64,000 nt of DNA, taken from assembly GCA_008632985.1 (NCBI GenBank), contig QPGO01000106.1, positions 1 to 64,000 on the forward strand, read 5' to 3'. Source of the stretch: Psammoneis japonica (lineage: Eukaryota). The notes under the pieces were generated by a model. The model did not search any database. It was not told the origin of the DNA and saw only the letters and a list, made by a program, of their open reading frames with translations. Positions 1-30,899 of the stretch are shown one piece after another. The position numbers were made by a program, and so were the translations under genes. Positions within the stretch are counted from its first letter, which is position 1. Each line of letters starts with the position of its first letter.

Positions 1-3000
1 TTGCGTTCACTCTCAAGTTCGAATGACCGATTAGCGTCCATGTGTGACTGCAATCGCCAAACGTTGTTACTAGCAATTGTTCTTCCGGATCTGGAAGGAA
101 GATTTTACCCTGTACCAATTGCTGGAATGTAACAGAGTTCGGACCAGCCAAAACCTGCGTTCCTCCGACCAACACAGAAGCCATGAGGGCCGCACCGCTG
201 GATGAATAGTCCAGCTCGAGTACGTTCAAGTCGAAGCTAAATGCGGCTGGCGACTGAACGCCCCGGAGTTTAACATTCTTGCCATCTGCGAGCCTTCTGC
301 CAGATGAAACCGTATCAACGAGATCTCCAATCTGTTTCACATTGGAGAAAGAGCTGTACGCGCTGCCAGAGACGCATTCAATCACTTCATTTCCAACACT
401 TCCTGATAGACTCGTACAGTCCAGCTCTCCGCTGTCACTCGCCGGGAGTTCAAGTATGCCACTTGACACATCATAGGAAGCAAGTGGCCCGGGTAGCTCT
501 GGTGTGAAAACGAGGGGGTCAATCAGATCCGTCGTGAATGTCTTTTTGTAGGAGAAGAGGGTTATCTTCCCAAAGAATAAATCGATAATGATTCTGATAT
601 AAATGCTGAGAAAGACATTGATTCGCAGACCGAATTCAAACCATTTTAATGCGGTGATAAACCCGATGTAAGCAATTCGTAAGGGCGCACAAGGCCCCCA
701 GATTGCTGGGGATTTGGGTCGAACAAGTCAATGGTGGCAATAAACTTGATGCCGCCCGACACACCGATCTCAATGAAACCTGCGCTTACACTAACCATGA
801 CAGCCACAATGCCCGTAAGGGTAATCATCGGCTTGTCTACACCATCGAATACATCAATCAAACCAAAGCTATTGAGGGCCTTCTCAGGCTTGTCCTGCTC
901 AATGGCCTCGCGGATGCCTTTGGAATCCAGGGCAAAACCAACTTCGAGTGTTGCAACGAATTCAAACGCAATCCCAAGCCTTGCTGTGGGGGGAGTGTAC
1001 CTGGACAATCATACGAAAATAATTCTGAGGTATATCCAAACAAGGGATATCTTGTTGGGGGATGCATGGTCGTGGAAACTTACACAGTTGTCTGGAACTC
1101 GCACTCGAATGCAAAGTTTGCGTTGGGTGGCTCAAATGCAATCAATTTCTGACAGCAAAACAAACGCAACAACTTTGAGTGAGTTTCTCAAACACGCGAA
1201 TCTATGAGACACTCTTGTTCCCTGCATCAACTCACAATGTCTTGGCCTTGGAGCAGGCCGAGGGCATCAGTTGGTCTGGAGAGTGCGGGGAATTCAAGCC
1301 CCGACACCGAGTTGGCTTGGCATGAAAGCCTTTTTGATTGGCACACGAAGTCAGCTGTTGAACAGTCTTGAGCGAGGACACTTGTACAATTCTCATCGGC
1401 TTGACCCTCGAAAATTGGATCAGAAAGCGCTCCTGCACAGTTGAATCTGTCCAGGAGATCGCGTTTGTCTGCCAAGCGAAGTCCACCGCTGTCGCCAAAA
1501 GATTCGAATGACGAAATGACTGACTCGCAGATCTTGGCAATTTCACGAACAGTCTTTGCTCCCGAACGCTTTCCGATGAAAATTTTGGCAATGTCCAGTG
1601 CAGTGATGTCTCTCCCAGCAATATCTGAAATGCCCGGAATCCGTTTGCCGAGAGGCACAAGTGGCCCCACAACATTGTCCAACATGCCATCTGAACCGTC
1701 TGCTGCTTTCCCAAGGACAGACTTGACGAAATCCTTGAGCGCCTCTAAATTGAGTTCTACTTTGGTGAGCTGAGCAACTGTCTCAGAGCACTCGTTGTCA
1801 AGAAAATCGACAGCCACTCGATCTGCGTTGTTCAACGAGCCGGTCTCAATTCGGCACCGAACTTCAATCCCGAAATCTAGTGTCGGGATCCAGGATTTGA
1901 TTTCGTCAAGCCCCTCTCCTCCGATCGACAGTTTGACATCTGATTCAAGAGCTGCACCAGCAAGGGCTCCAACCTTGAACAAGTCACTCTTGTCACGTGT
2001 CCTTCGAAAGTCCGTTCGAGTCAGAGACCCACCCTCTCCCGTGGACATGTCCACGAAGACACCCGCACCAACCGTCAAATTCGCACGTTTCATTTCCGCC
2101 AACAAAAAGAACAATGAAGCAGTTGTGTCTTGGTCCTTGACTTTGAGTGTTGCATTGACAGCCAGCTCTGACTCATCCGGAACGGCAGAGAGAAAGAACC
2201 CTTCTTCGTCGTCGAAGCCAAGTGCCAGTTGAAAACGCCACGAGATTCCAAGAGAAGGCGATGTGTCACCAGTCTCTGACGACATTTCCAGTGGAAAGTC
2301 AATGCCATCACCCAGGCCAAAGTCAAGAGGAAACTCTTGCTCAAATTGCTGGCCAAGGGGCATCTGCCAGACAACAGACGTTGGGTCGCCAGTGGTGCAG
2401 CTCACGACGCCTTCCACACCACGAGCAAAACATTCGTCAGACACGGTGTTTTCAAATGGAAGGAGATCAGCCTCCTGCAGCACATCCTCAAGGAGGTCAC
2501 GAACGACATCAGCAACATTCTCTGCTGATTCAATCCTGTTCAAGGTTTCCCTGAGCTTCGGCACAACATCTCGGCGTGCTTGCGCCAAAATGTTGTTGTC
2601 TGCATTTGAACCGATGGTGCTTCCAAGTCCATTTCAAATGAAGGGGATTCAAAAATTGTCACCCCACCGTTTGTCCCAAAAATGGCATCTTTGACGGTTC
2701 TCAATGCATCGTCCAAGGCATCAACAAACTCATCTCGCAACTGAAGCAGGAGTGTCAACAGATCAGGAATCTCGTCAGGCCCACTAAAGTTGACTGTCGG
2801 GTCCAAGCTTGCAGGGTTGTCAATGAATTCATCCACGTTGTCAATGCCGAAGCTGATGTCTGCGCTAAAGTTAACAAGGGGCACTTCAAGATTAATGTCG
2901 GCACCAATGGATCCTGAGAATGATGCACCAAGTTGACTGACAAGAGCAACTGGATCAATGAGCTGGCACCTTCCATTGGCAAGTCCGACTTCCAGTTTTA

Positions 3001-6000
3001 GAGGATCTGCTCCATCCCCGATGAAAAATCCTGCATCCACCTTTGCGCTTGGAGGTCCTGTGGAGGGCTCGAAATCCAATGTTCCGTTCGCGACAAACGA
3101 CGCGGTGAAAATCGGCCCCCCAATGATGTGAGTCTCCACTTCGAGAGTGTCGGGGTTGCAACTCACTTTCACATCTAGTCAAAAGACCAGCTCGCCATCG
3201 ATTTTGATTGTCGCATCACCATTGGATGGCAAGAGCGTCTTGGCAAAGAACTGTGGAAAATTTGAATTCGCCGTAATTTTGGAAAGGTCGACATCCAGCG
3301 ACTCCACCTCTTTGAATGTCCATCCGAGCTCAATCTCAAGCGAAAGCTCCAAATTGGTTGCAGCCATTTTGACAAGTGGTGCTCTGCCAATGCCGTCGGC
3401 AAGCAACGTCTCCAGCTTTGCTTCAAATGATGACAATGAGTTCTTGATGCTGACTCTCGTCACGTCTTCCGCAAGGAGGTCGACGATTTCATCGTTCTCA
3501 AGGGCTTTGATTTCGTCTTCCCTGAGGACGTTGACAGCATCGATGAGGACTTGCAAAAAGCTTGCTGCATCGCAAACCCTGATTCCAACAACTTGACAGT
3601 TGAGAACGAGCAGCGGAGAACACACACAGAAGACAAATGAAATGTGAGTCTGAGTCTGTTCTTGTCCTCTGTGTGGAGGGCTCCTTCTTTTTCTCTGCTT
3701 GCGTGGAATCTGACACCGGACAAAATTGTTCCCCAGCAGACCTCCAGCACACGACTTCACCGCCTCCGGTGTGAGATCTCCGACAACAAATTCCACTGCT
3801 CTCGAAAAGCCTTCAAGAACATTGGCACAGGACAAGCCTGGAATGCCTTGAGGGAGACTGACATTGAAGAGAACCGGTGGAGCACTTAATTTGCTGAGAA
3901 AGTCGACTGTGAACGGCTCGAAAATGCCATCATGCGTCTGTTCTTCAAAGTCATCGAAAGGAGGCGCTAGTCTGACAGCCCCAGAAAAGCTGTCTGCAGC
4001 AAATGCAGATGAGGCACCAAGAAATCCATCAACACACCCTTCACTTTCTGGTTGAAAGATGGATGCCACTGCCATCAGCCAGTCACAGCAAAGCAGGCAC
4101 CCGCCGGAACCAAGTGAGACGCTCACGTCTCCCACCAGCGATGCACTCAAATCTGTTCCGACCTCAACAAGACCTGGTCCAACAGTTGCGACAAGATCCT
4201 CACGCCCTTCAATCTGACAATCCGCGTCAATCAACGACTTTCGGACTGTGATGTGGCACGGCCTTCGGGACAAATCCTGGTCTTGCAGGCCGCAAACATC
4301 AGCAATGTGCTCCATCCTTCAGTCTTGTGGGCAGTCAAGCACATCCTCAAGAGTTGCAACTTTGGTTTCAGGATCCACACAGTCTTTTTTTCGCACCCAG
4401 AGTCTAACATCATTGATGGATGGATCGAATCTGATGCTCACCAAAGACTTGCCGCACTTCTTGACTGTGGCAATGCCGTCAAAGACCCTCCCAAGCCCTT
4501 CCGTGACCAAGCCACCGGCTTCGAAATCCAGCGGAATGGTGTTTCTGCTTTCCATGATTGTGCATTGAAGTCTCAGCCTGACGGCCTCTGAAGTGCACTC
4601 GTCAAAGCCCATCCCAGAGCAGGCACATCCTAAAATGACAATGTCTTCACTCAAGTTCGGTGCCAAGATGACCGTGAAATCTGCCGTGTAATCTGCTCTT
4701 TTTACAGCCACTGTGATTGAGCTCACTTCTTTTGGAGCCACTCGTCGCACGTTTTGGAGGTCACCCACGCCACCGGACATGTCAAATCGAACATTGTACG
4801 ACGAGGCACCCCTTTCAAAGGCCAAACTGACTTCGAAACAGCTCACCTGCTTTCCTGTCATTTCTGGGGTGCAGGAGAAAGGAACATTCACACATTCGCA
4901 TCCAAGGCCCATCACAGTGTCTTCAACTGTGGTGAAAGAAAGAAGGGCAACAGGTTTTGAAGTTGTTGGGAATGGTTCTCGCAAAAGAAGTGGCGCCGCA
5001 CGCGCGTGTCTCCAGCGTCACTCACTGCGAGTCACAAGATCATGAAAGGAACAGAAACGAGGAACCAAAGCCGGCATGACAGGCTGATTCAATGGAAACT
5101 CAAACATCGACGTCGGACCTTGTAGCTCGTCCAAGTCTTTGTAAAGCCCAACAAGGTGAACGTCCTTTGGTCCTGCCAGCGACCGAAGCAATGAAGACGT
5201 GGCCATCATTTTCATTTACATTTGGAGGGTGAACATCAATGACAACGTCACAATCTTGGTCAAAGCAGCCGAAATGTTCCCCCGCATCGTCATCAAATTG
5301 GCAGAAACAAGAGCCGGGCAGCTGAGGGTTGCATTCTAGCGCACAAACCGCAACACTGCAGTCTGAAGCGTTGATTCCATCAAAGAGAATCTTTCTGAAT
5401 GCAAAACTGTTCTCTGGAGGGCTCATGGGCAGTTGAAAGGCACACACACCGTCTGTTTCTTTCGCCAGTTCCCGAACAGACACAGGATCGTCTGGATCAA
5501 CTGCCAATTTGGTTTCCACAAAGTGGAGCTCCAATGTCTTGCCAGGAGCAAAGGTCCTTCCGCTGCTTTCATTAAATGCAAGCAAAGAATTAAGGAACAG
5601 ACTTCGACTGGGGCGGAGGTCGAAATCCTCAACCTTTGAGAACCACGGGAAAAACTGATCAATGAGTGGGGAGCCTGTTCTGAGAGTTTCGCCAAACGAG
5701 ATGTTCGACAAAGGCAAACTAAGCTGCGTCGCTTCGTTCACCTGGGTCCGAGTGAAAGTGCTGTCCATTGTGCGAAGAAGTGAAAAGGCGTTCTCCGGGC
5801 AAAATGCCAAGAAGTCATCGATGTTCGTCAAGTCCGGAACGTCGAGTTCCGCAGTTGCCGAATGGATGTCGTCCTCAATGACACTGAACGCAGCAGTCTC
5901 GTCTGATCCAGTGAGCTCTGCACCCAGAAAGGGGTCGCCAATGGCACAAGTTCCCTCAACACTGTGCTCTCCAATGGCATTGAGGTGGAAGGATGTGCCT

Positions 6001-7206
6001 GTCTTGATGGGCCGTCCGATGACATCCTCGTCACAGTCATCGCCACCACACTCAGTGAGATTGAATTCAGCCGACGCAGTTGCATTGTCAGCCGTGCAAG
6101 CCAAGTTCAACATTCCCAAAAACAAATCCAGATCCGGCATTCCGCCAAGCTTCAGTGATGCTTCAATGGGGGCAAGCAGGACAAGGTCTGGAATGAAGAA
6201 CAAATCAGCGACGAGGCAAGCGCCAAAATTGAGGTTTGAAGACACAACTTTGATTGCGTCCATCTCAAGGACAATGCACTCCCCAACAGCATGGAAAAGC
6301 CTGGCACCATCCAGACTGGCAGTTCGATCAAAATCAATCGAAGAGCAAAAATTGACAATGGCACCGGCGCCGGGACCATTGGGTCACCGTCACGGGTCCT
6401 TTGGTCCCATCGCAGCCAACTGCCAATGGATGAGAGTCAACAACCCCATCTCTTGTCAGGCAATTGGCCAGTCGCTCTTCCAATGCCCTGCAGGTGATTT
6501 CAGCATCCCCTGTTTCCTGTGTTGTCTCCTGGACAAAATTCCTTAAATCAACCACAGCATCTGTGCTGCTGTTCTGTCCTCCAATTACGGCATTGATCGA
6601 TGATCCTACAAAGGGGATTTTCCGGTTCAGGATTTCATTGTCTCGAAAGACCTCCACCCTTTCGCAGAGCTGGTTGAAAACTGGGTCGAGTGCAATGAGA
6701 TCCACAACACAGGCGTCCGCCACAGCACTGGGTGAAGATGAAGGAGAAGATGACACACTCGGTGGTGGTGAAGGAGCGGGTGTGACAGTGGGTGCTGTTG
6801 AGGGGGCCGATGTGTCAGTGGGCGAAGTTGAAGGAGACTTTGACACACTCGGTGGAGGTGAAGGAGCCGGTGTCACGGTGGGTGCAGTTGAAGGAGCCGA
6901 TGTGTCAGTGGGCGAAGTTGAAGGAGCAGATGACGCACTGGGTGGAGGTGAAGGAGGTGATGTCACCACGGTGGGTGCACTGGTGGAGGCTGGTGCTCCT
7001 CCGTCGAGGAGGCGAGACCAGTGCTCAGCATCTTCCGTTTCCAACAAAGCCTTTTCGTTCTTGTCATCCTCTCTGGATTCTTCTTGCCCTGCTCTTCTGA
7101 AAAAGCGAGACAAGTGATCAGCAGCCGATGCGACGTGAACAAACGACGCCACCGCCACCACGACAAGGATGACACAGGAAAACGCACTGAACTGTGAGAG
7201 CCTCAT
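1..7206 (-). pseudogene. Disrupted gene for a giant secreted protein (>2000 aa; signal peptide, Pro/Ser/Thr repeats, acidic beta-rich body resembling RTX/hemolysin-associated giant proteins); continues off the window
   Basis: ATG 7206 with hydrophobic leader MRLSQFSAFSCVILVVVAVA. Consecutive minus-strand ORFs 6334-7206, 5100-6263, 4319-4984, 3179-4315, 2540-3172, 1227-2588 and 646-1008 are broken by frameshifts/stops. Introns 1149-1235 (GTGAGT..CAG), 1001-1083 (GTAAGT..CAG) and 3592-3702 (GCAAG..AAG). Family assignment is recalled from the GVSGGI..IDLFDP..GLVR motif, not searched. Confidence 0.7.
6739..6957 (-). repeat. 90-bp coding tandem repeat (~2.4 copies; PSTSPTDTSAPSTAPTVTPAPSPPPSVS)
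   Basis: TGAC(A/G)CACT..GGTGG recurs at 6751, 6841 and 6931. Confidence 0.9.
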
Positions 7207-7918
7207 GGTGTCACAGCCTGTCTGTCAGAGAGCGGTGTTGCAGAGAAGTTCGCAAGCAAGCAGCAACGATGAACGTTCAGAAATGCAAATGATCTGTGAT
7301 CTTCTGTTGACAGTTGATTGACGCTTTTGTGAAAGGATGAAAAACTGCGTGTGCGTGGACTCCACGCAAGATAAAATTTCAAACTTGGGATCCACATGTC
7401 ATTTGTTGAGGAAGATTCAAAGATGCTCAGGAAATCTTTCTTCAACAAACAAGACTTGCGAACAGCAATGATCTCCAATGCAATTTCAAAACTTGATCAA
7501 GCATGCCCGTCGGACTTCCAAATTCGGCCCGTCATGTGTGTGTGCAACGCGGCCATCAGTGGTTGGTGATTGCACGCAGTGGATGCCAAAAAGGGTGGTT
7601 GTTTCTAGGTCGACACCTTTGCCATGGAGAGGTGATGAGAGGTTGGATGCGGGTGTGTTGGCGAAAACCCATTTTGGTTTCCAAAGCAAAAACCCATTTT
7701 GGTTTCCAAACATGGCCAACCACTGCATTGTGACAGGCTGAACTTCCGTCCATGGGCATTGCCAAACCTTCGTGGAAAATTCACATTGCTCCCGTTGCCA
7801 GTCATGGGGTTGGTGGCTGTCATGGATGCACAGTGTGCATGTGAGTGAGCGTGGTTTGAGTGACTGGAAGTTGGGGATTTCAAGTGGGAATTGTTGCATC
7901 TGCATGAGTTGCCAATCT

Positions 7919-8178
7919 GGCCTGTCCCAGCTCCAGGTGCTCCGCGCGGGTTCGATTCCCATCATTTGGAAATTTGTGCATTTAGCGCAATTAACTTTTT
8001 CCAAATCCGTTTTTTGCCAAATCGAAGGGCAAGTGTGCACTTTGCATGCATTTTCGGGTGTACACTCACCTTTCGATTTTCGAAACGATCAAAATTGAAG
8101 GAGTTAATTGCGCTAAACTGCGCAGAAAATCGGCCTCTCGCGTGATGAAAAGCAGAGCACCTGGAGCTGGAACAGGCC
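7919..8178. mobile_element. 260-bp MITE with 24-bp TIRs and a 4-bp TSD (ATCT)
   Basis: TIR GGCCTGTCCCAGCTCCAGGTGCTC (7919-7942) vs GAGCACCTGGAGCTGGAACAGGCC (8155-8178), 1 mismatch. ATCT at 7915-7918 and 8179-8182. Inner inverted repeat TTTAGCGCAATTAACT/AGTTAATTGCGCTAAA. Absent from duplicate copy B (empty site ~9455). Confidence 0.9.
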
Positions 8179-8488
8179 ATCTGTCATTTTGCACGTCATC
8201 GGGAAGAATGTGGCACAGCATGAGATTTGCTTTTTTCTGTTTCAGAATGCCATCGGTCATGTCAGGCTTGCGCTCTCATGTTCAGAAGAAAGCAAAATGA
8301 GCCACACTCAACAGGTGCATGACATGTTGCGGATCCTCACAGCACAACAGCAAGCCTTGCAGCAAGTCGCTCCTCTCTCCAATCTCAACCCTCACATGGA
8401 AGACTGTCAGTGATGCCCTCATCCTGCATGTCAGGCAAAACTTGCAGGACACATTGCTCTGTGAGATGTGCAAGGAGGTCACCGTGTG

Positions 8489-8962
8489 TTGTCCACTCTC
8501 TCGAACTGCTCCCCGGCGCTGTTCTCCACAATCAAAACACAATTCTTCTCCTGCATCAATGTCTCGTTTGGCACAAAAGCACATTTTGCCATCTCCAAAC
8601 CATTGCTTTTTCCACACTGCACATTTGCATCTATTTTGGAATTCATCCATCGTGCCAACCCGGATTTGTCAGCGTCCATGCCATCATGGTGCACTGGTTC
8701 GCCCCGCTGCACTGCCACAGACATTTCAGCAACATGACGACCTCAACCGTTGGGATGCCGTTCAAAGCACTTGTTTTCATCAAGTTGCTCACCCTTGTGC
8801 TTGAACAGACAGGATCCAGATTCTGTGTTGCAAAGTGCAAAAACAGCCCACCATTCCCGCTCCGTCAATTTTAGATTCTTGAGTTGCAAATTCGGACTGG
8901 GGAAATGGATCTCGAATCTCATTAAATGACATGCAATGTGAGACAAGAGCAATGCCAACAAG
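8489..8962 (-). pseudogene. Hypermutated partial copy of the SET-domain gene
   Basis: KMCFCAKRDIDAGEELCFDCGEQ and SCLFKHKGEQLDENKCFERHPNG align to KMYFYAKRDIDAGEELCFDYGEQ and SYLFEYKGERLDENEYFQRYPDG; frameshifted. Confidence 0.92.
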
Positions 8963-9745
8963 CAAAAAACACAAGAAATGGAGGCCAAGATTTTTTTCAT
9001 TTCTCTCTGTGGCCATGACATGTGCAGAGTGGCTTCAGGGTGCAGTGTTGAGGTTTTAGATGCTGAATTTGGCATTCCATTGAACTGTGCCACCTTGTGA
9101 TGTGAGTGAATTGCGGGGCCATGAGAAAATTATCCAGTGTTCAGTGGATGCCAAAAAGGGTGGTTGTTTCCAAGTCAACACCTTTGCCATGGAGAGGTGC
9201 TGAGGTTGGATGCGGGTGTGTTGGCGAAAAAACCCATTTTGGTTTCCAAACACGGCCAACCGCTGCATTGCGACAGGTTGAATTTCCGTCCATGGGCATT
9301 ACCAAACCCGCGTGGAACATTCACGTCGCTCCCCGTTGCTCGTCATGGGGTTGGTGGCCGTCATGGATGCGCAGTCTGTATATAAGTAAGCGTGGTTTGA
9401 GTGACTGGAAGTTGGGGATTTCAAGTAGGAATTGTTGTATCTGTATTAGTCGTTATACTGTCATTTTGCGTGTTATCGGGAAGAATGCAGCACGGTATGA
9501 GATTCGCCTTTTCTGTTTCAGAATGCCGTCGGTTAGGCTTACGCTCTCATGTTCAGAAGAAAGCAAAAGCACCACTCGACACTCGACGTGTCGCGGATCC
9601 TTACAACACAACAGCAAGCCTTACGAGTCCTCTCTCCGCTCTCGACCCTCGCATGGAATACTATCAGTGATACTCTTGTCCTGTATGTCGGGTGAAACTT
9701 ACAGGACACACTGCTCTGTAAGATATGTGAGGAGGTTACCATGCG

Positions 9746-10447
9746 TTATTCACTCTCTCGAACCGCTCCCCAATACTGTTCTCCATAATCAAAACACAAT
9801 TCTTCTCCTGCATCAATATCTCGTTTGGCATAAAAGTACATTTTGCCGTCTCCAAACCGTTGTTTTTTCCACACTACATTTGCATCTAGTTTGGAATTCA
9901 TCCACCGTGCCAATCCCGATTTCCTAGCGTCCATGCCATCAATATACACTGGTTCGCCCCACGGTACTGCTGCCGGTATTTCAGCAACATAACGACCTTG
10001 ACCGTCGGGATAACGTTGAAAGTACTCGTTTTCATCAAGTCGTTCGCCCTTGTACTCGAACAGATAGGATCCAGAGTCAATGTTGCAAAGCGCGAACAGT
10101 CCCATGCCCGCTCCGTCAATTATAGATTCTTGAATTGCAAATTCGGATTCGGGCAATGGATCTCGATTCTCATTAAAAGACATGCTATGTAAAACAAGAG
10201 CAGTGCCAACAAGAGTGGTAGAACTCAAAATGAAAAGTGGATCAAACATGTCGGTGGCAATTCCAACCGTCAGCGCGGCAACCGCCATTCCTCCACCCGC
10301 AATCAATCCGGTTTGTTCCAAACGACGAGATGCAGATACTTCGAGTTGAAGAGGCTTCTTCTTACTGCCATCGTGTAGATGCTGTGGTGGTGGTAGGGCC
10401 AACAGACAAAGGATGCCGCTAGTAGCAGCAGCACAGAACGGCGCCAT
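9746..10447 (-). CDS. SET-domain protein lysine methyltransferase-like, with N-terminal hydrophobic segments
   Basis: GAGMGLFA, ARWMNS and ELCFDYG SET motifs; ATG at 10447. Confidence 0.88.
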   Translation of the reverse strand: MAPFCAAATSGILCLLALPPPQHLHDGSKKKPLQLEVSASRRLEQTGLIAGGGMAVAALTVGIATDMFDPLFILSSTTLVGTALVLHSMSFNENRDPLPESEFAIQESIIDGAGMGLFALCNIDSGSYLFEYKGERLDENEYFQRYPDGQGRYVAEIPAAVPWGEPVYIDGMDARKSGLARWMNSKLDANVVWKKQRFGDGKMYFYAKRDIDAGEELCFDYGEQYWGAVRESE

Positions 10448-11528
10448 TGTCGACTTCACCGTATCATACAGTACCGCCGCCCGGTATGATGTGTGACTAA
10501 CGCGTATTCCACTTTTCGAAATTATGCTTACCTACGTGTACGAAGACACCATTTTCTCAACATTTAAAGAAAAAAGCTTTTTTCCGATTTCAATTGACCT
10601 GGTAATTCAATAATGAGTAAGAAAAATGCAAAATAGCAAGAAAGTGTCGTTAGTTGCTTGCGTTCGAGGTGAATGTCATCATTTTTCGCGGCAGCAAGTT
10701 GTGAGCTCCACAAATCATACACTTACTGTTGTCTACCATCAAATAACGCACACCATAATCCATATTATCAATGAAATGGACCATCCGTTGCTTGGCTTGA
10801 TGCAAAAGACAGTGTATGACACGCAACAGCCCCATTTCGATTGATGCAGAAATGTCGGCCGCAGACAAATGGTTCAAATGTCGACATGAAACTAAGAGCC
10901 GGTGTTCCTCGTCAGGGCTTTTAACATGGTCGAAATGCTCCCTATATAAGTGTATGAAACGAGCGTATCAAATAAAAAGAACGAGTCAGTGACACGAAAG
11001 CGCAATACGATTGTATCGCGACAGCACACGAAAAAGAGCAGCGGATGGTGATGCAATTACAAAATCCATTTTTGACCTTTCGATTGAGCAATTACCTTCA
11101 AACAAGCGATGAAAATAGTTTCTATATGATGGTAGAAACTATTCTAAAGCACTGATGTTGTTGAAAGGGTTTGGCAATAGCATGAAATGCCGTTCCGATT
11201 CTCATGGTGAGTGGCGTTCGGAGGGTGTGTGCGCATACGTGACTGAATGAGTCCCGCCTAACTTCATGCAGCCGCCGCGCGCTCGCCTCAGTCCTTATGA
11301 TACAGTAATTTTAATTTTAAGATATATTACTGTATTTATAAAATCATTCACTTCCAACGGACACCTAGTTTCCTAACAAGACTGGATCAAATGGTCGCGG
11401 TTAGCATAGAATAGAGTCAGTCGTGTATGCGTACTGCGGTTTTGCATTACACGGTATTTTGGGTTAGGTTTTCGTTTTTGGAGATGCCGCTGCTGCGAGT
11501 TACCTAATATATCGTCATCTCTCTCGTT

Positions 11529-11552
11529 CACAACAACAACAACAACAACAAC
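11529..11552 (+). repeat. (CAA)n microsatellite directly before the ATG
   Basis: caacaacaac... run ending at ACATG. Confidence 0.9.
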
Positions 11553-14189: not shown

Positions 14190-16170
14190 ATGCGATTAAG
14201 GTTTGTGAGTTCTCGCAGTCTTCCACAGGTCAAGAGTGTCATTGGCGTCTTCAACTTTGCTCATTCGGAATGTCAACTGGCTGGCGCGTCGAGAGGGTGG
14301 AGGGAGAAAGAAGAGAGAAAGCGAAGAGTGCTTTTGTGCTGGCCGAGAGATCCTGTCTTTTCAAGCATCGCCAGGTGGGAACAAAAAACCATTGATGTCT
14401 GTCTTTCAAGTTTCCAGCAGAGAGCACAAAAATTGACAACAAAATTCAAGAACATGGGGATTGCCGGAAACCACTTTGAAGGGTCCATTGTCATTGCGCT
14501 CATCAACATCATCTGCAACAATCTTGAGCTCATCCTGCAGTGCTTTGCAGTTGGCACGTTCCTCACCCGATTTCCAAAAATTGGCAAATTCACTCATGAG
14601 CAATGGTGTGTGAACAGAGGTCAAGGCCATGAGAACAGAAATGCCAACACAAAGGATTGCTTGTCGGCACGAGTGGATTTGGGGTGGTGTCAAATTGCAC
14701 CATGATGTGGAGTTTGAATGTGTTTTGTGACAGAACCCACATGTTTGTTTCCCAATGTGACATGGTGGAAAAATGCTTGGCAACTGAGAGCATTGGGCAA
14801 ATCATCAGCATGCATGTGCTGTTTGAGTGGCGATGAAAACTGGGCCAATTCTCTGTCCTCGGTCATGCCACTGCCACCAAGAACCTTGTCGTGACTCCAG
14901 CCATCTTCAAATGAGTGAAGCTTTCCATTTTGAATCAACTCATTAACTTTGAGTCCCTTGCTCTTGACAAGTTCTGGCAATTTTTTCCATTTTGGTTCTT
15001 TTTGGCGCATGCTTGCCACCGCTGCTTTGAAAGAATCTCACACAAAGCTGGTGGTGGTGTGATGCACAATGCTGGCTCAATTGTTGATGAGCACCATGCA
15101 CATGACAAAGGGTTGCAGCACTCAATGAATGGCATGGTCCTCTTGCAGAGCACAGTGCTGGCTTGCAATGTTTGAGCCGAAACCCAAAAGTGATGTTGAA
15201 ACAAATGATCTGCCGCTGTCATGAGACAAAAGAGTGAGGATCTCCCCATGCAAACTTGGCATGATGTGTTCCCACTGGCTTCCATCACTGGGAGTGACCA
15301 AACTGTCAGATGTGCCTGTCACGAGAACCTTTCCTTTTGGTCCTCATTGAAGTGGGCACATGCTCCGCACCTGCCAAAGCCTTTTTGTGCCTCAAAATCC
15401 TTCACAAAGAGCGTGTCCACTTCAAAGACCTTTCTTTTCTGATTTGCTCCAGCGGTGGAAAAATGAACAATGGCCAACAGAAAAAGATCCACTTTTTTGA
15501 CAAGACAGTGGAGAGCTTCCACACCTCTGCTCTCAAGTGACACAGAAAGCATGTGTGTTGTTCAGAAAAAAATGTTGAACCCTCACACTGCCGCTGATGC
15601 TGAAAAAAAGAGGGTTGAGAAAAAACACATTGTGATGCACAGCCATGGTGCAAGTTGCCAAGAGCTGGAGTTTGTGTGACATCTTGGGAGGCACCAGCTT
15701 GAAATGAGTTTTTTGCACCCCACTTCAAACAAGCCCACTTTTCTGGGCCTGAGCACTTTGACCCATGATGCCGGGTTGCCCTGGCCCTCAACAGGTTCAT
15801 GAAGAAGCAAAGTTGCCACTTCTGGCAGAGCTGGTGTGCTGAGCACCAGCACAATGTTCTCAGGTACAGTGCACAGAATGTGCCCCAGCTCTGCTGGGTG
15901 GGATGCCTCATGCATTGTGGCACTGTGTGGTGCTGACATCGCGTGGGCCTCACAACATCAAGCACACGTGTTTCTGCACACAACTTTGGCTGCATTTTTT
16001 GCACTGTTTTACCGCACAGCCCAGTTGTCATGCTGTCCACTTGACAACTTTTAATTTTTCCACAAAGCAGCTCTCAAATGTGCCTGTGGCATGATGCTCC
16101 AGCCCCAGTTGTTGCTCCACAGAGCATTGGCCTGCCCACGCAAACTCTGCCCGCAGCTCTCACTCTGGTT
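14190..16170. other. TpA- and CpG-depleted degenerate island, origin unrecognised
   Basis: Only a handful of TA sites in ~2 kb; overlapping Cys/His-rich, near Tyr-free ORFs in all frames. Confidence 0.8.
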
Positions 16171-18290: not shown

Positions 18291-18295
18291 TTTTA

Positions 18296-21810: not shown

Positions 21811-22589
21811 GATTGCGTGATTTATGGCAGAGGAGAGAGCTTTTCAGAGAACAAGGTCTTTCTTTGAAATATGATTACTTCGGCAAAGATACGCTTTCAT
21901 CAGTTGGTTCCATGTTCCATCGGCCATCGGCAGCATCTTCCCGTCAAACCAAAACCTGATTCCTCCTCGTACGATACGTACGTAGATTTCTACGAAGAAA
22001 GTTCCGCGAAAAAATGAGGTTGAGCGTTCAGGATTGCGCATCCCCTGCGCGAAACGAACTCACTTGGCTGCCGTCGAAAAAATTGAAGTTTCGCGCGTCA
22101 GCGCGAAACTTTCGCGGCGGCGAAAGATTCCTGATGCCGCCAGCGGCGGCAATGTGCTTACATTCAAGTTTGGATCTAAGAAACTCGCGAGAGTTCGGCC
22201 TTGCATCCGAAGGAATCTTCAACTCGACCATGAACTTTTCACGAAAATGAGCGGTGAGCGGTGACGCCTCACCCACACTGACACCTTCATCGAGTTGACG
22301 ACTTTATCGAGCAGACGACATGTTCATCAATGCGAGATGGAGCTGCAGCATGTTGACCAACAACTGGGTTGTTCCAAGGTCAAACACATCACTGTGATGA
22401 TGAGTGCTGTGTCACGGGACTTTGAAGAGGTGGTGTCATCAAGTGTCATTGTGGCTGAAAGCAGCAACAAGCCTTCGGTTGCTGTTGCCTCAGTTTCAAG
22501 ACCCACTGGGAAGAAAAAGCAGCGGTTGTTGCAGAAGAAAAAGAAGAAACCAGCTTTTTCTTCTGAAGCATCCGATCCATTCACAGCAG

Positions 22590-22925
22590 GCCAGAACAGC
22601 ATGAGCTTCTGCATCCGTGGCAGGCCACGCTCACAGCAACGTGACAGGGCTGGTTGGAATGTGACCAGCAGGTGCAACCCATCAAAAAAGCTGCAGGCAG
22701 AGTTTGCCAAACTCGTGCACAACCTTTGTGCTTGCCACGAAGTGTCTCTGCCCTGCTTTTGCGCCAATGCAAGTCTGTTGGTGACTGCATCTTTTTTGTT
22801 TCCTCCACCAAAACGAGGCAGAGGAAACATTTTTAGAGTTGCAGACATTGACAACCTTTGCAAGTTTCTGCTTGATTCACTCAACAAGCTTGTGTGTGAT
22901 GATGATTGTAAAGTCGTGGGGTGCA
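22590..22925 (+). pseudogene. rusA: RusA-family Holliday junction resolvase remnant
   Basis: FCIRGRPRSQQR..CNPS..FLFPPPK..ADIDNLCKFLLDSLNKLVCDDDCKVV matches the RusA DxDNxxKxxxDxL..YxDDxQV pattern with Tyr->Cys. Confidence 0.75.
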
Positions 22926-23459
22926 CGAGAGTTTGTGTGGAATCAGCAAAAGAACAGCAATTGCTGTTGTGCACCTCTGCACAATGTGTCATTCAGTGCT
23001 TGTGCCACATTTCTTCCCTTTCTTTGTTCGATGAGGATTGTGGTGGAGAGGGGGGGGTGCACGACAGCTTGCGCAGCAGCAGAATTAAAACAACAGTGAC
23101 TGGAAGCACCACAATGAGAGGGGATGCACGAGAGTTGGTGTGCAAGCAGAACAATGACCATGAGGATTGTGGTGGTGAGGGACACACAAGAGTTCCTGCA
23201 ATTGAAAGAACAAAACATGCTGCGCCTGAAGCACATCCACCCAATGCACCATTCAATGCGCAACAGCTCACCATCATTCAGCACTTGTGCAGCATTTCTT
23301 CACTTGCACACTGGCGACACTGCGTTCTTCATTCTTGAGAAGAACAAAGTCAAGACACCTGTTCCTCCCTCTGCTGACATCTCCACAGGACTCCTCTTCC
23401 TGCCTTTGTGGCGGATGCACCCGTTGGCTTCACAACACTTGTTGCACCTGCCACCAACA

Positions 23460-24940
23460 CCAGTCATTGTCTTCCACAGGCTGGAGCTCGTCTTTTTGTT
23501 GAGTTCACCCATTTTGGTGAATGCTGCATGCTCCATTTCACATGCAACTGCAGCCAGGACACTGTCAAAATCTTCGATTGCCTCCCATTCAGATGCTTTG
23601 TCTTGAGCAACAGTCTTTGCTCATCAGCAAGAACAGACTCCACAAGCTCCACAGCCCCCCAACAGAAATGTGTGTCTTTCTGAGGCACCGAATCAGGCAT
23701 GGCATCATGCAGCTTGCGCCCAGCAAACAGCTTGTTTTTGTCGACCAATTGAACAATGAGCTCCTTTGTGGTGATCCCTTTGCTTGTGGCTGTCAAATCC
23801 AAATTTTGTCGCCATTGCATTGATGTCAATGCTTTCTTGTCGTGCTGCTGCTTGGCCTCACACAGTGTCTCATTGACAGATTCAATGAATCTCAGAAGTT
23901 CTTGCGGGATTCCGGGATTGCATCCCTTCTGTCGGGTGTTGTGTCGGCAGTGGCCGTGGTTTCAACAGTTTCAATCATGTCAGCTCTGGCATTGTGAGTG
24001 AATTCCTGTTTTGCAATGGGTTCTTCTGTGTTGTTGTTTGTTTCTGGCTCCTCCGCTGCCCGCCCACGGAACGCCGCCTTCAGCGCAGCAACAATGGATG
24101 ACAAGAACGTGGTTGTTGTCAACATCTTCAGTCCAGACACTTCAGATCCAATGAGATTTTGCTTCTGCTGCAGCTCCAAATTCAACTGCACAAGCTTTTG
24201 GATGACACGTGACTGCTTGTTGATTGCATCTGTCAAAGTTGTGGCCGCTGCATCTGGCACCCGACTGTTTTCCAATTCGTGGGCCTTGTCAATGATGCCC
24301 ACCAATGTGACCAATTTGCGGTGTGCCTCCCCTGGAGACATTGCCAACCTGGCTTTCTCAACAGAGGACACCAATTTGCACACCAATTGATTCCCAGGGC
24401 CAAACTCCTCGTGCACAACAGGGCACTTCATTGCAGTTGAAATAAAGAAACCAACACAAGGCACAGACATGACACAAGCCGGTCCATTTCTTCTGCTGTG
24501 ACATGGCTCACAAGAGCATCCAGACTTGCTGGGTGCACCATGTCTCATGGATGCTCAAATCCCACAAGCGCATTGGCCGGTGCCATTCCAGCCAAAGGAT
24601 TCATTCTGGTGTGTGGCTCACTGTTGTTGCCAGCTGAGAAGCCACCAGCAACTCCTCTGGTGTGACATCTGGATGAATTGAAAGCTCAGTGTTGGAGCCA
24701 ACGTGAATGCTCCAAGACAAATTGAACACAAGCATCTGGGCGTCTGAGTTTTTCTTTGTTGATTTTGCAAGTTGCGCAGCTGCAGCTGCATCAGAAATCT
24801 GCCAAAGATCCGGGAACACTGCCTTGTTTGCCAGCTTTGTTTTCTCATCCAAGCTGTCACACCGGCACAAGCCATCTTCCACAGCAAAGAACGCTCTGGT
24901 GACAGCAATGCTTGCCATGCTTGGTGTTTCACATCTCACT
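23460..24940 (-). mobile_element. Degenerate coding remnant, possibly tyrosine-recombinase (Crypton-like) element-derived
   Basis: SWSIHVGSNTELSIHPDV resembles the YR S-x-R-x-G..T..H motif after CGC->CAC decay; weak. Confidence 0.25.
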
Positions 24941-25938
24941 CAGTGGTGCCACCACGTCTGTTGACACCCAGTGGTTGGGCAATGCAACAGAGTCTTGGTG
25001 GCTCCGAGCCGTGTTGAACAGTGCTGATGATGTGATCATGACTTTAATGGTGTGTGATGTGTGCTGACTGAGCACTGGTGCTGTGCTCAGTGCTCATTTT
25101 GCGCGCAGCACCAGTGCTCATTTTCTTCACGCATCAATGGACGGACCAAGTTTTGCACGATTCGCATCTCTTGCAGTCCTGAGTTGCAAAAGTTGGCTGC
25201 TTCCTTCTGAAAAACAGGGAGTTGCCTCAAATCTGTTGAATCTCGAACAATGAACATCACATCAGTGAATGCACAAAAATGTGTTGTCTGCAACATGCAT
25301 CATGCACGTGTTGAAAATGTGCACAGATGTTTGTCAGGCCAGTTGTCAACGTTCATGCACGAATGACACATGGTGATTCTGTTCGTGTGAGCACACGCAG
25401 TCAACATTGTTGATTAAAAAGAGTCATTTTTGCCAAAAAATTGGCGACAGTTTCAACAAGTCGGAAAAAGTTTCAACAGATTTTTTGTTGAAACTGTCTG
25501 ACGTCACCACAGTGTCATCGTAGAAAATGCCAAAGAAGACGCTGTCACCGCTTTTTGGACCACAAGGACTGCCAAAGCTTGGCACATCGGGACCTGCCTG
25601 CAGCAGAAGCTAAGAGCAAAAAATGAGACTGCTGCAAACTCTGAAACCACTAAATTGACCATCAACTGAGCCATTTTCAATCCGCTCTTGGCAACAGTGG
25701 CAAGACAATCATCACTCCAGCTGTTGTGACTGCCCTTCACTGCCATGTTGCCCAACTCTAGAGCTGACACACGCTGCTGGCACAACATCAACGCAAGCAA
25801 AAAGCAAGGCCAGTGAGGTGAAATCTGTGGCAACATGTGACAGCTCGTGCAAATCCAGCACAAGTGACTGGGTCCCACGAACGTTTAAGAAACCACATGG
25901 GCACAAAAAACGCGCAAGACTCCTCTGCCTTCATTTGA

Positions 25939-26630
25939 TTGTTGCTTTCCCACATCTTGCCGAGTGCTGTTTTGAAAACATCATCCACTGACATGCTCCA
26001 CAGGGGTCTGGCTCTCTGTGGCACCAACTCTTGTCACCAGAAACAGTCTGGAAAGGATCGTTGCGTCCGCCGATTCAAAAAGCTGCTTGGATCCACTCCC
26101 AGAGTTTTCAAGCATGTGTTTCACAATCCCCAAATGACTGAGATTGACAAAGCTCATGTCGCTCCTGATGACATCTGCTTGGATTGTTTCTTGATGGCGC
26201 TTCTTAACTTCTTGAAACTCTGCAAGACGGAGGAGGTCTGATCGGCCATTTTTGCTGTCTGTGAGAACCCGGCAGGCAAGTGGGTTTGGTTTTCCATTAA
26301 AAAGACACAAGCACTCAAGAAACAAAAAATTGTGTGGCCAGAAGAGGAGTCAGTTGAGCCGCTCCTGACGCACCTGTTCCTCATTTCGGTCGACGTTGTC
26401 CACTGCCTGGTGAACGGACCACAGCACCCATTCGTTGCATGGCAAAAACAAGAAACAACATTGCTCCCACAAAGCCAATCAAGCCGGCTTGACCTGCTGC
26501 ACAAACTTGCCCTCTCAATCCATGAGAACCGCCTTGTGTGGATGAGAGGGCCAGCCAACCGGCCAAGGCCTTGCTCCAAGCACGACATTTTGATGTTCCG
26601 TGAGAAGCTCAACATCATGTGGCCCAATGT
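25939..26630 (+). mobile_element. PIF/Harbinger-ISL2EU-like DDE transposase pseudogene
   Basis: RRFK..G, FLMAL.FLK, KIVWP, FLISVDVVHC..P.HP, SHK, LALSIHENRLVWMRGP, HDILMFR across broken frames. Confidence 0.7.
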
Positions 26631-26639
26631 AGAGTCTGA

Positions 26640-26790
26640 AAGTTCCAACAGTTTGTGTGAATTTTTGTTGAAAGCATTTTTGTTGAAACTCAAACTTTCA
26701 ACAACAAAACTGTTGAAACTTTGAAGTTTCAACAACTCGAACAAAGTTTCAACAGTTTTTTGTTGAAACTTCCAAGTTTCAACAGATTTT
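26640..26790. repeat. Array of AGTTTCAACA/TGTTGAAACT motifs (second cluster at 25449-25495)
   Basis: About 9 motif copies in alternating orientation here and 3 in the left cluster, flanking the transposase remnant. Confidence 0.8.
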
Positions 26791-30860: not shown

Positions 30861-30899
30861 GGCAGACAACAGAGACGTCACACTCTCTGCCACTGCAGA

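What the first reader, a model, noticed from the sequence alone, without database searches (positions are those of the whole stretch)
8489..10212. 'Reverse-RIP': directional TpA->TpG/CpA hypermutation shown by an intact/mutated gene pair
Seen: aligning intact 9781-10072 to copy 8524-8817 by eye, about 15 of 16 TpA sites are lost, nearly all to TG or CA (ccaTAa>ccaCAa, aaTAtc>aaTGtc, agTAc>agCAc, tgTAc>tgTGc, gaTAg>gaCAg), alongside several CpG>TG/CA changes. Known: the Tyr of SET ELxFDY is conserved, so FDY->FDC fixes the direction as TA lost, not gained. Fungal RIP does the opposite (CpA->TpA), and 5mC deamination only explains the CpG part. Inference: a dedicated process mutates A>G 3' of T (equivalently T>C 5' of A) in repeat domains. 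Candidates are a DNA adenine deaminase, a mispairing modified T/A base, or error-prone repair of methylated chromatin. I do not recall this being described, but could not check the literature.
Basis: partly seen in the sequence, partly recalled or inferred. Interest (0 to 1): 0.95.

Follow-up and report, generated by a model that had tools for sequence, protein, structure and literature searches.

The report
TpA-erasing mutation domains in diatom-like DNA
More than half of this stretch of diatom-like nuclear DNA lies in sharply bounded blocks where almost every TA step has been rewritten to TG or CA, a real and directional mutation process seen so far in only one other alga and still lacking a known enzyme.

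Summary
The mutated SET-gene copy (8181-8962) kept 3 of the 35 TA steps of the intact copy (9458-10213); 27 became TG or CA. All 10 Tyr codons of the intact gene are changed in the copy, and 8 of them are invariant in 13 outgroup proteins, so TA was lost, not gained. A second pair shows the same loss.

The window is a mosaic. 36,250 of 64,000 bp lie in seven blocks with rho(TA) 0.00-0.08, alternating with gene-bearing blocks at about 0.6. Edges are sharp to under about 100 bp.

Contigs from an accurate-read public run reproduce the TA-free sequence, so this is not a base-calling artefact.

It is not RIP in reverse. Only one copy is hit, a block edge runs through the repeated unit, and the blocks are single-copy.

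The process prefers RTAY and spares TTAA. It hits either strand independently, and CpG decay follows a different flank rule.

The same TpA signature was measured in Bigelowiella natans (bioRxiv 10.64898/2026.01.13.699255). I found no diatom report. Adenine deamination in silent chromatin is the most likely mechanism, but this is inferred.

The parts
9746..10459 (-). Intact SET-domain gene (copy B ORF, 237 aa), ending ...ELCFDYGEQYWGAVRESE
   Evidence: ORF. 13 homologues with PF00856, best 55% identity, named ones from diatoms. Covered by contig X2 record 9, 9430-10518.
9142..10213 (.). Duplicated unit B (9142-9450 + 9458-10213). Its left 235 bp (9142-9376) are already TA-poor.
   Evidence: Self-BLAST, alignment. 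1 TA in 9142-9376 against 10 TA in 9377-9457.
8181..8962 (.). Mutated copy A, main part (SET pseudogene with in-frame stop and 9 indels). Kept 3 of 35 TA.
7577..7909 (.). Mutated copy A, upstream part. Kept 0 of the 9 TA of B 9142-9450 (5 TG, 3 CA, 1 GA).
7910..8180 (.). High-copy repeat inserted into copy A. It is less mutated than its surroundings (rho TA 0.27, rho CG 1.05).
   Evidence: X1 summed depth up to about 10,700 against 58 nearby, loose ends at 7919 and 8178. Composition. Copies elsewhere differ at TA<>TG/CA (7984, 7993, 8037, 8114).
1101..9350 (.). TA-depleted block 1 (43 TA, rho TA 0.08, rho CG 0.71, rho TG and CA 1.46)
   Evidence: HMM segmentation. X1 record 1 (depth 58) covers 1-6835 with 11 other letters.
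14201..16150 (.). TA-depleted block 2 (4 TA, rho TA 0.03, rho CG 0.29)
   Evidence: X1 records 5 and 6 bridge both of its edges with 0 other letters.
22001..32250 (.). TA-depleted block 3 (38 TA in 10,250 bp, rho TA 0.06, rho CG 0.48). Holds a RusA-like ORF at 22265-23335.
32601..32950 (.). Short TA-depleted block (0 TA in 350 bp)
38001..41350 (.). TA-depleted block (15 TA, rho TA 0.08, rho CG 0.57)
47601..56450 (.). TA-depleted block (32 TA in 8850 bp, rho TA 0.05, rho CG 0.36). Contains the longest TA-free run, 51151-53094.
60751..64000 (.). TA-depleted block (10 TA, rho TA 0.05). Runs off the window end.
46033..47347 (+). Second pair, TA-bearing copy, in a normal block. Holds a Lys/Ala-rich repeat ORF at 46487-47164 (-).
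62362..63992 (-). Second pair, mutated copy in a depleted block. Of 39 TA in the partner, 1 is kept, 16 became TG and 13 became CA.
1230..7224 (-). Large secreted-type gene remnant inside block 1 (signal peptide, Pro/Ser/Thr repeats, acidic body). Tyr 0-0.2%, 2 in-frame stops.
   Evidence: Homologue P0014 (857 aa, 44% identity, E 1e-104). One stop lies opposite a Gln of P0014.

Best explanation
This diatom-like nuclear genome runs a chromatin-block-restricted mutational process. It converts 5'-TA-3' to TG or CA, which is A>G on one strand or the other. The affected blocks also decay at CpG, presumably by 5mC deamination, and so are presumably methylated, silent DNA. The SET pseudogene sits in such a block and its intact twin sits just outside. 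That is why the pair displays the spectrum so cleanly. Shown: the direction of change; the restriction to blocks with edges sharp to under about 100 bp; independence from copy number; near-saturation (rho TA about 0.06); a flank rule (RTAY nearly extinct, YTAR spared, TTAA almost untouched); independent hits on either strand with no strand-coordinated runs; and the near absence of TA>CG double hits. Inferred: the chemical step is deamination of adenine to hypoxanthine, which pairs with C, at A preceded by T in double-stranded or transiently opened DNA. One hit destroys the TpA on both strands, so each site is hit once, and that explains the TG/CA pile-up. Expressed gene blocks are spared either because the activity is recruited by silent-chromatin marks or because transcription-coupled repair removes the lesion. 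By its signature this is the same kind of process as the TpA-only hypermutation measured in Bigelowiella natans mutation-accumulation lines.
For: Spectrum: summed over three alignments, 83 TA in the TA-bearing copies gave 4 kept, 34 TG, 30 CA, 3 CG and 12 other.

Polarity: all 10 Tyr codons of B are changed in A (5 TGY, 4 CAY, 1 CGC), and 8 of them are invariant in 13 outgroups. Of 37 differing codons the outgroups side with B at 29, with A at 3, and tie at 5.

Blocks: 142 TA in 36,250 bp against 1181 TA in 27,750 bp. TA spacing changes from about one per 100-250 bp to about one per 12 bp within 80 bp at 9350/9377, and similarly at the other edges.

Not selection: in normal blocks, 3 of 3 introns (21 TA in 281 nt), the SET 3'UTR (rho 0.86) and the intergenic stretch 10460-11500 (rho 0.75) all keep TA.

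Not an artefact: X1 contigs (depth 58-60, up to 9.8 kb) match 1-6835 with 11 other letters. They match 11246-17738, which spans a whole depleted block, with 0 other letters.

Flank rule, as length-normalised depleted/normal ratios: ATAT 0.008, ATAC 0.008, ATAG 0.03, GTAC 0.048, ATAA 0.054, CTAC 0.065, GTAA 0.10, CTAG 0.16, CTAA 0.275, TTAA 0.61. By class, R..Y has 9 against 379, and Y..R has 79 against 178.

The CpG flank rule is different (R..Y 0.70, Y..R 0.53), so two processes share the blocks.

Ongoing or recent activity: the young insert 7910-8180 is only partly depleted. Also, 8 of 9 listed multi-copy variant sites in the two repeat families are TA<>TG/CA.

Precedent: in B. natans, 230 of 231 de novo mutations in two regions are A>G or T>C, and all of these are at TpA. 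That genome also has 124 clusters of TpA-poor, CpA+TpG-rich windows (Results read).
Against: - No enzyme, lesion or DNA modification was observed. No genome is held, so no deaminase search could be run.
- Outgroup polarity is proven only for pair 1.
- The platform of X1 is not on record. X1 may be the sample the assembly came from. Accuracy is inferred from depth and contig length.
- 10 of the 12 CG- or TA-type differences between the window and X1 have the window in the 'mutated' state. This could mean a few consensus errors at modified bases.
- A one-flank deaminase model fails. The strand that was hit is the one with the favoured 3' neighbour in only 21 of 47 informative sites.
- There are no strand-coordinated runs such as processive ssDNA deaminases leave.
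- Targets here are not recognisably viral, unlike the two B. natans regions. The only possibly foreign-looking hit is one RusA-like ORF.
- The rate excess is only bounded: at least about 14-fold per A over background in pair 1. It is not measured per generation.
Confidence: 0.75

Rival explanations
1. Modified-thymine route. A TET/JBP-type or other enzyme modifies T in RTAY within silent chromatin, giving a 5-hydroxymethyl- or formyl-uracil-like base. That base mispairs with G at replication and gives T>C. The blocks and products are the same as in the best explanation, but the chemistry differs.
For: The palindromic RTAY dependence, the random strand choice (21 of 47) and the lack of runs fit a site-by-site mark on duplex DNA as well as deamination does. 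From memory, not from a call: dinoflagellate 5-hydroxymethyluracil is said to favour TpA and TpC. The review I opened (PMC6313786, passages) says only that it replaces 12-68% of thymidine.
Against: No evidence of such a base here. I found no report of 5-hydroxymethyluracil in diatom DNA (listing: all 8 listed hits of 15 are dinoflagellate papers). T>C needs a mispairing derivative, whereas deaminated A pairs with C directly.
Confidence: 0.15
2. Base-calling or assembly artefact. TA and CG are present in the DNA but carry modified bases that the sequencing platform reads as TG/CA.
For: 10 of the 12 CG- or TA-type differences between the window and X1 have the window in the TG/CA state and the reads in the CG or TA state. 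A small number of consensus errors at modified bases is therefore possible.
Against: X1 contigs at k-mer depth 58-60 reproduce the TA-free sequence. There are 11 other letters in 6835 bp, of which only 2 restore a TA. There are 0 other letters across block 14201-16150 and both its edges. Copy A also carries 9 indels and 23 transversions relative to B.
Confidence: 0.03
3. No special process. TA-poor, CpG-poor sequence is the genome-wide neutral equilibrium, and gene blocks keep TA only through selection.
For: Depleted blocks contain almost no recognisable genes, so they are probably old neutral DNA.
Against: Introns, 3'UTR and intergenic DNA inside normal blocks keep TA at rho 0.5-1.1. Edges are sharp to under about 100 bp. 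One edge cuts through a duplicated non-coding unit.
Confidence: 0.03
4. Reversed polarity. The TA-rich copy B was hit by a RIP-like C>T at CpA, while copy A decayed only at CpG.
For: Every difference would then be a canonical C>T event.
Against: 8 of the 10 Tyr codons of B that differ in A are invariant Tyr in 13 outgroups. Outgroups side with B at 29 of 37 differing codons. B is an intact, contig-covered gene.
Confidence: 0.01
5. ADAR-like editing of double-stranded RNA followed by reverse transcription and re-insertion (an edited retrocopy).
For: A 5' U preference is known for ADARs (as discussed in the B. natans preprint).
Against: Copy A includes flanking DNA beyond the transcript-like contig end (7577-7909 matches 9142-9450). 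The depleted state runs on for kilobases through unrelated single-copy sequence. TAG is less depleted than TAT and TAC. This is opposite to ADAR's 3' G preference, which I recall from memory.
Confidence: 0.01

Closest known systems
TpA-restricted hypermutation of integrated viral DNA in Bigelowiella natans (Mettrop et al., bioRxiv 10.64898/2026.01.13.699255; abstract, Results and Discussion read)
   Same: The products are the same (TpA>TpG/CpA only) and the process is regionally confined. It leaves a long-term footprint of TpA-poor, CpA+TpG-rich clusters that hold mostly unannotated sequence. The mechanism is unknown; the authors propose adenine deamination by an ADAT2-like protein.
   Different: Here the host is diatom-like (a stramenopile by its best protein matches), not a rhizarian. 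Depletion is near-complete (rho 0.06 against 0.45 for their NCLDV region) and covers 57% of the window. The content is not recognisably viral and includes pseudogenised host paralogues. CpG decay accompanies the TA loss. An RTAY flank rule is visible here; the preprint text has 0 occurrences of 'trinucleotide', 'flanking' or 'CpG'. No per-generation rate was measured here.
Fungal repeat-induced point mutation (RIP)
   Same: Dinucleotide-specific transition hypermutation that kills duplicated or silent DNA and leaves a strong dinucleotide skew.
   Different: RIP is C>T at CpA, which makes TpA; here TpA is destroyed. RIP is triggered by duplication and hits both copies. Here one copy is spared, the blocks are single-copy, and an edge cuts through the repeat unit.
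5-methylcytosine deamination (CpG decay) in methylated DNA
   Same: It explains the CpG>TpG/CpA component: 23 of 43 CG in pair 1 and 22 of 49 in pair 2. It also fits the stronger loss at AT-flanked CpG.
   Different: It cannot produce TA>TG/CA. TA loss is more complete than CpG loss and obeys a different flank rule.
Polynucleotide adenosine deaminases (TadA/ADAT2-3, ADAR)
   Same: A>I reads as A>G. tRNA A34 is preceded by U33, and ADARs prefer a 5' U (the ADAR point is from the preprint's Discussion; the tRNA point is from memory).
   Different: These are RNA enzymes. No such gene could be searched for here. The favoured 3' neighbours (T, C) and -2 purine do not match what I recall of the ADAR (3' G) or tRNA-loop contexts.

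Membership tests
TpA-specific regional hypermutation (B. natans type) | Mutations are almost only A:T>G:C and fall on TpA, giving TpG/CpA | tested here: met
   64 of 83 TA sites became TG or CA and 4 were kept. Polarity from 13 outgroups.
TpA-specific regional hypermutation (B. natans type) | [quoted passage not shown] | tested here: met
   Seven blocks with rho TA 0.00-0.08 against about 0.6 elsewhere. Sharp edges. Introns and UTRs of neighbouring genes are normal.
TpA-specific regional hypermutation (B. natans type) | Per-generation rate raised by orders of magnitude in mutation-accumulation lines | not testable with these tools
   Only a bound: at least about 14-fold per A over background in pair 1. 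At equilibrium the blocks hold 7549 CA+TG against 142 TA.
TpA-specific regional hypermutation (B. natans type) | Target is integrated viral or foreign DNA | tested here: inconclusive
   155 ORFs of depleted blocks scanned against Pfam. One hit above cutoff, RusA (also PHROG 140, E 5.8e-11); two sub-threshold hits (Med16_bridge, ThrE). No capsid, polymerase, RT, integrase or transposase. The clear contents are host-type pseudogenes.
Fungal RIP | C>T at CpA, raising TpA | tested here: not met
   The opposite direction is seen.
Fungal RIP | Triggered by sequence duplication; both copies mutated over the repeated length | tested here: not met
   Copy B is spared from 9377 on. The edge lies inside the repeat unit. 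The blocks have single-copy depth.
5mC-driven CpG decay | CpG>TpG/CpA transitions in the same DNA | tested here: met
   Pair 1: 23 of 43. Pair 2: 22 of 49. Block rho CG 0.29-0.71 against about 1.0.
5mC-driven CpG decay | Cytosine methylation present in the blocks | not testable with these tools
   No methylation data could be reached.
ADAR/ADAT-type adenosine deamination | A deaminase of the CDA fold encoded by the genome and acting on DNA | not testable with these tools
   No genome is held. No deaminase domain among the 172 window ORFs scanned.

The most novel reading that the evidence does not exclude
Stramenopiles (here) and rhizarians (B. natans) share an old, enzyme-driven DNA-editing arm of heterochromatin. 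A duplex-DNA adenine deaminase, or a thymine modifier, with RTAY specificity is recruited to silent, CpG-methylated blocks. It irreversibly erases every TA step, including TATA-like elements, TAA/TAG stops and all Tyr codons. This permanently disables whatever lies in the block, whether virus, transposon or a silenced host gene. It would be a third kind of eukaryotic genome-defence mutagenesis beside RIP and APOBEC, and a natural double-stranded-DNA A-to-G editor.
Probability: 0.4. Interest if true: 0.92.

Novelty: new member of a known kind. Interest (0 to 1): 0.8.

Why it matters
TpA-only hypermutation has so far been reported once, in a 2026 preprint on one rhizarian alga, and its mechanism is unsolved. 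This window shows the same signature in a diatom-like genome, at saturation.

The window adds features that constrain the mechanism:
- a palindromic RTAY preference, with TTAA spared;
- one hit per site, on either strand;
- no processive runs;
- block edges within about 50-350 bp of the ends of transcript-like contigs;
- independence from copy number;
- co-location with CpG decay.

Diatoms have transformable, CRISPR-tractable model species. If those species carry the same blocks, the enzyme becomes findable.

A natural A-to-G activity on duplex DNA would also interest base-editing work. In addition, blocks without TA distort codon usage, gene prediction (only TGA stops remain) and divergence dating in such genomes.

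Tried and rejected
- Whole-genome access: none is held. So there was no deaminase, TET/JBP or DNMT search and no genome-wide repeat spectra.
- Relatives' DNA: a metagenome scan with the large-protein alignment found no relative. A scan with the SET alignment gave 80 loci, none informative. The three closest (L001, L005, L006) are short with rho TA 0.68-1.33, and the low-TA windows belong to contigs of 55-75% G+C, mostly above 62%, probably bacterial.
- RusA-like ORF origin: a word-based homologue search found none. A viral-contig scan found none. The protein atlas was unreachable and then unavailable for new sequences.
I replaced it with 120 single ORFs.
- 'ThrE' label for pair 2: the hit is below Pfam's cutoff (24.1 against 26.3 bits). 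The TA-bearing copy does not match it. It is probably the antisense reading of a Lys/Ala-rich repeat ORF. Label dropped.
- One-flank deaminase models (only the 3' or only the -2 neighbour matters): rejected, 21 of 47 for the 3' model and so 26 of 47 for the other.
- Strand-coordinated clusters: none. Runs were 18 against 14.5 expected and 20 against 15.3 expected.
- Expression: no RNA holder is listed. X2 is on record as 'DNA?', but its contigs skip 91-97-nt GT..AG stretches. No X2 contig lay on depleted blocks within 1-20000.
- Tyr>Cys/His test in the large gene 1230-7224: uninformative, because its only homologue is itself Tyr-poor (0.7%).
- Earlier notes of this scan: nothing on this genome and nothing eukaryotic on TpA loss.
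- bioRxiv supplements (Table S2 of the B. natans preprint, the list of de novo sites) are closed. The RTAY rule could therefore not be checked there.
Full report
WHAT IS THERE

The window has about 48% G+C. Its genes are short, with 0-1 introns of about 90 nt. The intact SET-domain protein (9746-10459, minus strand) finds 13 homologues. The best has 55% identity, and the four whose listed names show an organism are from diatoms (Ditylum, 'Syned…' (truncated, probably Synedra), Attheya twice). I therefore call the source diatom-like. Its own proteins are not in the protein collection and no whole genome is held.

THE PAIR

Copy A (8181-8962) aligns to copy B (9458-10213) over 782 columns, 644 of them identical. 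There are 112 substitutions, 89 of them transitions.
- Of 35 TA in B, 3 survive in A. 14 are CA, 13 are TG and 5 are something else.
- Of 43 CG in B, 16 survive. 13 are CA, 10 are TG and 4 are something else.
- Away from TA and CG the copies differ at 47 of 589 sites, or 8%.

A also includes 7577-7909, which matches B 9142-9450 (334 columns, 280 identical). There, 0 of the 9 TA of B are kept in A. A is split by a 271-bp insert at 7910-8180.

DIRECTION

I aligned B, the codon-by-codon projection of A, and the 13 outgroups.
- All 10 Tyr codons of B in the aligned part are changed in A: 5 to TGY (Cys), 4 to CAY (His) and 1 to CGC.
- 8 of these 10 Tyr are invariant in all 13 outgroups.
- Of 37 differing codons the outgroups side with B at 29, with A at 3, and tie at 5.
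- A also has an in-frame TGA where 10 of 13 outgroups and B have Gln.

TA was therefore ancestral and was lost in A. The alternative, RIP-like C>T in B, is refuted.

IT IS A PROPERTY OF BLOCKS, NOT OF THE PAIR

Sliding windows and a two-state segmentation show seven depleted blocks: 1101-9350, 14201-16150, 22001-32250, 32601-32950, 38001-41350, 47601-56450 and 60751-64000.
- Together they cover 36,250 of 64,000 bp.
- They hold 142 TA (rho TA 0.00-0.08). Rho CG is 0.29-0.71 and rho TG and CA is 1.46-1.82.
- The remaining 27,750 bp hold 1181 TA (rho about 0.6, apart from one 350-bp segment at 0.32), with rho CG about 1.0.
- The longest TA-free run is 1943 bp. Controls reached at most 598-665 bp.
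- Edges are abrupt. Left of 9350 the last TAs lie at -478, -427, -293, -219 and -50. To the right they lie at +29, +31, +33, +37, +76 and onward.

A second, older pair behaves the same way. It is 46033-47347 in a normal block against 63992-62362 in a depleted block, with 768 of 1271 columns identical. Of 39 TA, 1 is kept, 16 became TG, 13 CA, 2 CG and 7 other. Its polarity rests on analogy only.

NOT AN ARTEFACT

One public run (X1) holds 90% of the sampled words of 5001-15000. I laid it on 1-20000.
- Its contigs have k-mer depth 58-60 and reach 9.8 kb here. That implies accurate reads, although the platform is not on record and X1 may be the assembly's own sample.
- Record 1 covers 1-6835 with 11 other letters and 2 gaps.
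- Records 5 and 6 cover 11246-17738, which spans a whole depleted block and both its edges, with 0 other letters.
- Record 3 covers 8531-9101, most of copy A, with 2 other letters.

The TA-free sequence is therefore what the reads say. The equal depth in both compartments also shows that the blocks are single-copy.

One oddity remains. All 11 differences in record 1 are CG<>TG/CA (9) or TA<>CA (2). Counting record 3 as well, 10 of the 12 differences of these types have the window in the 'mutated' state. There were 13 substitutions in about 9.3 kb of depleted single-copy contigs and 0 in about 8.1 kb of normal ones (table 8). This means either mutation continuing in the lineage that was assembled, or a few consensus errors at modified bases. 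I cannot tell which.

NOT SELECTION AGAINST A GENOME-WIDE BIAS

Non-coding DNA inside normal blocks keeps its TA.
- The three introns defined by X2 joints hold 21 TA in 281 nt (rho 0.5-1.1).
- The SET 3'UTR-like stretch 9430-9745 has rho 0.86.
- The intergenic stretch 10460-11500 has rho 0.75.

NOT REPEAT-TRIGGERED

Only copy A is mutated. The block edge lies at 9376/9377, inside unit B. B 9142-9376 holds 1 TA in 235 bp, and B 9377-9457 holds 10 TA in 81 bp.

I scanned 155 ORFs from depleted blocks against Pfam: 35 of at least 150 aa and 120 of at least 90 aa. Thirty-one further ORFs of block 1 were left out.
- None matched reverse transcriptase, integrase or transposase.
- The only hit above cutoff is RusA at 22265-23335, which also matches PHROG 140 with E 5.8e-11.
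- Two sub-threshold hits came up (Med16_bridge and ThrE). The 'ThrE' hit is probably spurious.

Block 1 holds the remnant of a large secreted-type gene (1230-7224, minus strand). Its one homologue is P0014 (44% identity over 468 aa). One of its two in-frame stops lies opposite a Gln of P0014.

The 271-bp insert in copy A belongs to a high-copy family (summed depth up to about 10,700). It is only partly depleted, with rho TA 0.27 and rho CG 1.05, so it is probably a later arrival still being worked on.

WHERE THE EDGES LIE

X2 is on record as 'DNA?'. Its contigs skip 91-97-nt GT..AG stretches, so it behaves like RNA. Its contigs cover 9430-10518, 11503-11780, 12102-12923, 13032-14041, 16528-17792 and 18163-18968, all inside normal blocks. 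The nearest block edges (about 9377, 14200 and 16170) lie 53, about 160 and about 355 bp from contig ends.

RULES OF THE PROCESS

(a) Flanks. These are depleted/normal ratios of TA by tetranucleotide, with the two strands pooled.

| Tetranucleotide | Ratio |
|---|---|
| ATAT | 0.008 |
| ATAC | 0.008 |
| ATAG | 0.03 |
| GTAC | 0.048 |
| ATAA | 0.054 |
| CTAC | 0.065 |
| GTAA | 0.10 |
| CTAG | 0.16 |
| CTAA | 0.275 |
| TTAA | 0.61 |

By class, RTAY has 9 against 379 (0.018), mixed contexts have 54 against 624 (0.066), and YTAR has 79 against 178 (0.34).

(b) Strand choice. A rate model with one neighbour per strand fits the survival figures. It fails to predict which strand was hit, being right at 21 of 47 informative sites. 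Either both flanks count equally on each strand, or the site is read as a palindrome.

(c) Independence. TG and CA outcomes alternate at random along the copies. Runs were 18 against 14.5 expected and 20 against 15.3 expected. Sites are therefore hit one at a time, not in processive single-strand sweeps.

(d) One hit per site. TA>CG occurred at 3 of 83 sites. The first change removes the TpA on both strands.

(e) CpG is separate. CpG loss obeys another rule: AT-flanked CpG is most depleted, GCGC is not depleted, and the class ratios are R..Y 0.70 and Y..R 0.53. It also varies much more between blocks. It is a separate process that shares the blocks, most simply 5mC deamination.

(f) Size of the effect. 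In pair 1, -ln(3/35) = 2.46 per TA against 0.08 per background site. That is at least about 14-fold per adenine, and it is a lower bound because the loss is saturated. In the blocks, CA+TG outnumber TA by 7549 to 142.

MECHANISM (INFERRED)

A>G on either strand at A preceded by T is what deamination of adenine to hypoxanthine would give. I think the most likely mechanism is an activity recruited to, or left unrepaired in, silent methylated chromatin. A modified thymine that mispairs with G is the main alternative. Nothing here shows the chemistry.

WHAT IS KNOWN

A 2026 preprint on Bigelowiella natans (10.64898/2026.01.13.699255) reports the following. I read the abstract, Results and Discussion.
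- 231 of 302 de novo nuclear mutations fall in two integrated viral regions.
- 230 of these 231 are A>G or T>C, and all of those are at TpA.
- The rate is about 6e-7 per site per generation, and only some lines are affected.
- The genome also has 124 clusters of TpA-poor, CpA+TpG-rich windows.
- An ADAT2-like candidate enzyme is proposed.

Its text never mentions diatoms, CpG, flanking or trinucleotide context. Eight full-text searches found no other report and none for diatoms. That library lacks most subscription journals.

VERDICT

It is wrong about repeat-dependence, and it has been overtaken on priority.

I file this as a new member of the just-described TpA-hypermutation kind. It occurs in a second eukaryotic supergroup lineage, at saturation, and it adds new mechanistic constraints.

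Noticed in passing
window 7910-8180: A 271-bp member of a very high-copy repeat family (X1 summed depth up to about 10,700 against 58). It is inserted into the SET pseudogene and is less TA- and CpG-depleted than its surroundings. Other genomic copies differ from it at TA<>TG/CA positions (7984, 7993, 8037, 8114).
   Followed up: partly
window 10606-11270: A second repeat family (X1 depth about 940, with 88-90-bp skips at 10764-10855 and 11141-11230). It sits in a normal block next to the intact SET gene and keeps its TA. Copies elsewhere differ at TA<>TG/CA (10725, 10735, 10913, 11123) and at one CG<>TG site (10727).
   Followed up: partly
window 22265-23335 (+): A RusA-like Holliday-junction resolvase ORF (Pfam PF05866 E 1.4e-6; PHROG 140 E 5.8e-11) in a depleted block of a eukaryote-like genome. 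It has 0 Tyr and 6.2% Cys. Possibly of phage, viral or bacterial origin, but no relatives were found by the searches tried.
   Followed up: partly
window 1-6835 and 8531-9101: Window and X1 contigs differ at 13 sites, all inside the depleted block. 12 are CG<>TG/CA or TA<>CA, and in 10 of these 12 the window carries the TG/CA state. There are no differences in about 8.1 kb of single-copy normal-block contigs. The cause is either ongoing mutation or consensus errors at modified bases.
   Followed up: partly
window 10281: The X2 contig (which behaves like RNA) reads G at depth 131.8 of 131.8, where the window and X1 (0 of 54.5) read A, inside the SET coding region. This is a possible RNA-DNA difference or a strain variant.
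   Followed up: no
window 1230-7224 (-): Remnant of a roughly 2000-aa acidic secreted-type protein with a signal peptide and Pro/Ser/Thr tandem repeats (6726-6979). Its only homologue found (P0014, 857 aa) is itself very poor in Tyr (0.7%), which raises the question whether that gene also lies in TA-poor DNA in another species.
   Followed up: partly
window 39657-40191; 26681-26789; 17679-18258: A tandem repeat of about 180 bp (85% identity) in a depleted block. A 109-bp inverted repeat onto itself. A 270-bp tandem duplication in a normal block.
   Followed up: no
window 33143-34309 (+), 36670-37935 (-), 59127-60599 (-): Ordinary genes in normal blocks: two sulfotransferase-family ORFs (PF03567, PF00685) and an Oxa1/Alb3-type insertase (PF02096, E 2e-30).
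   Followed up: no
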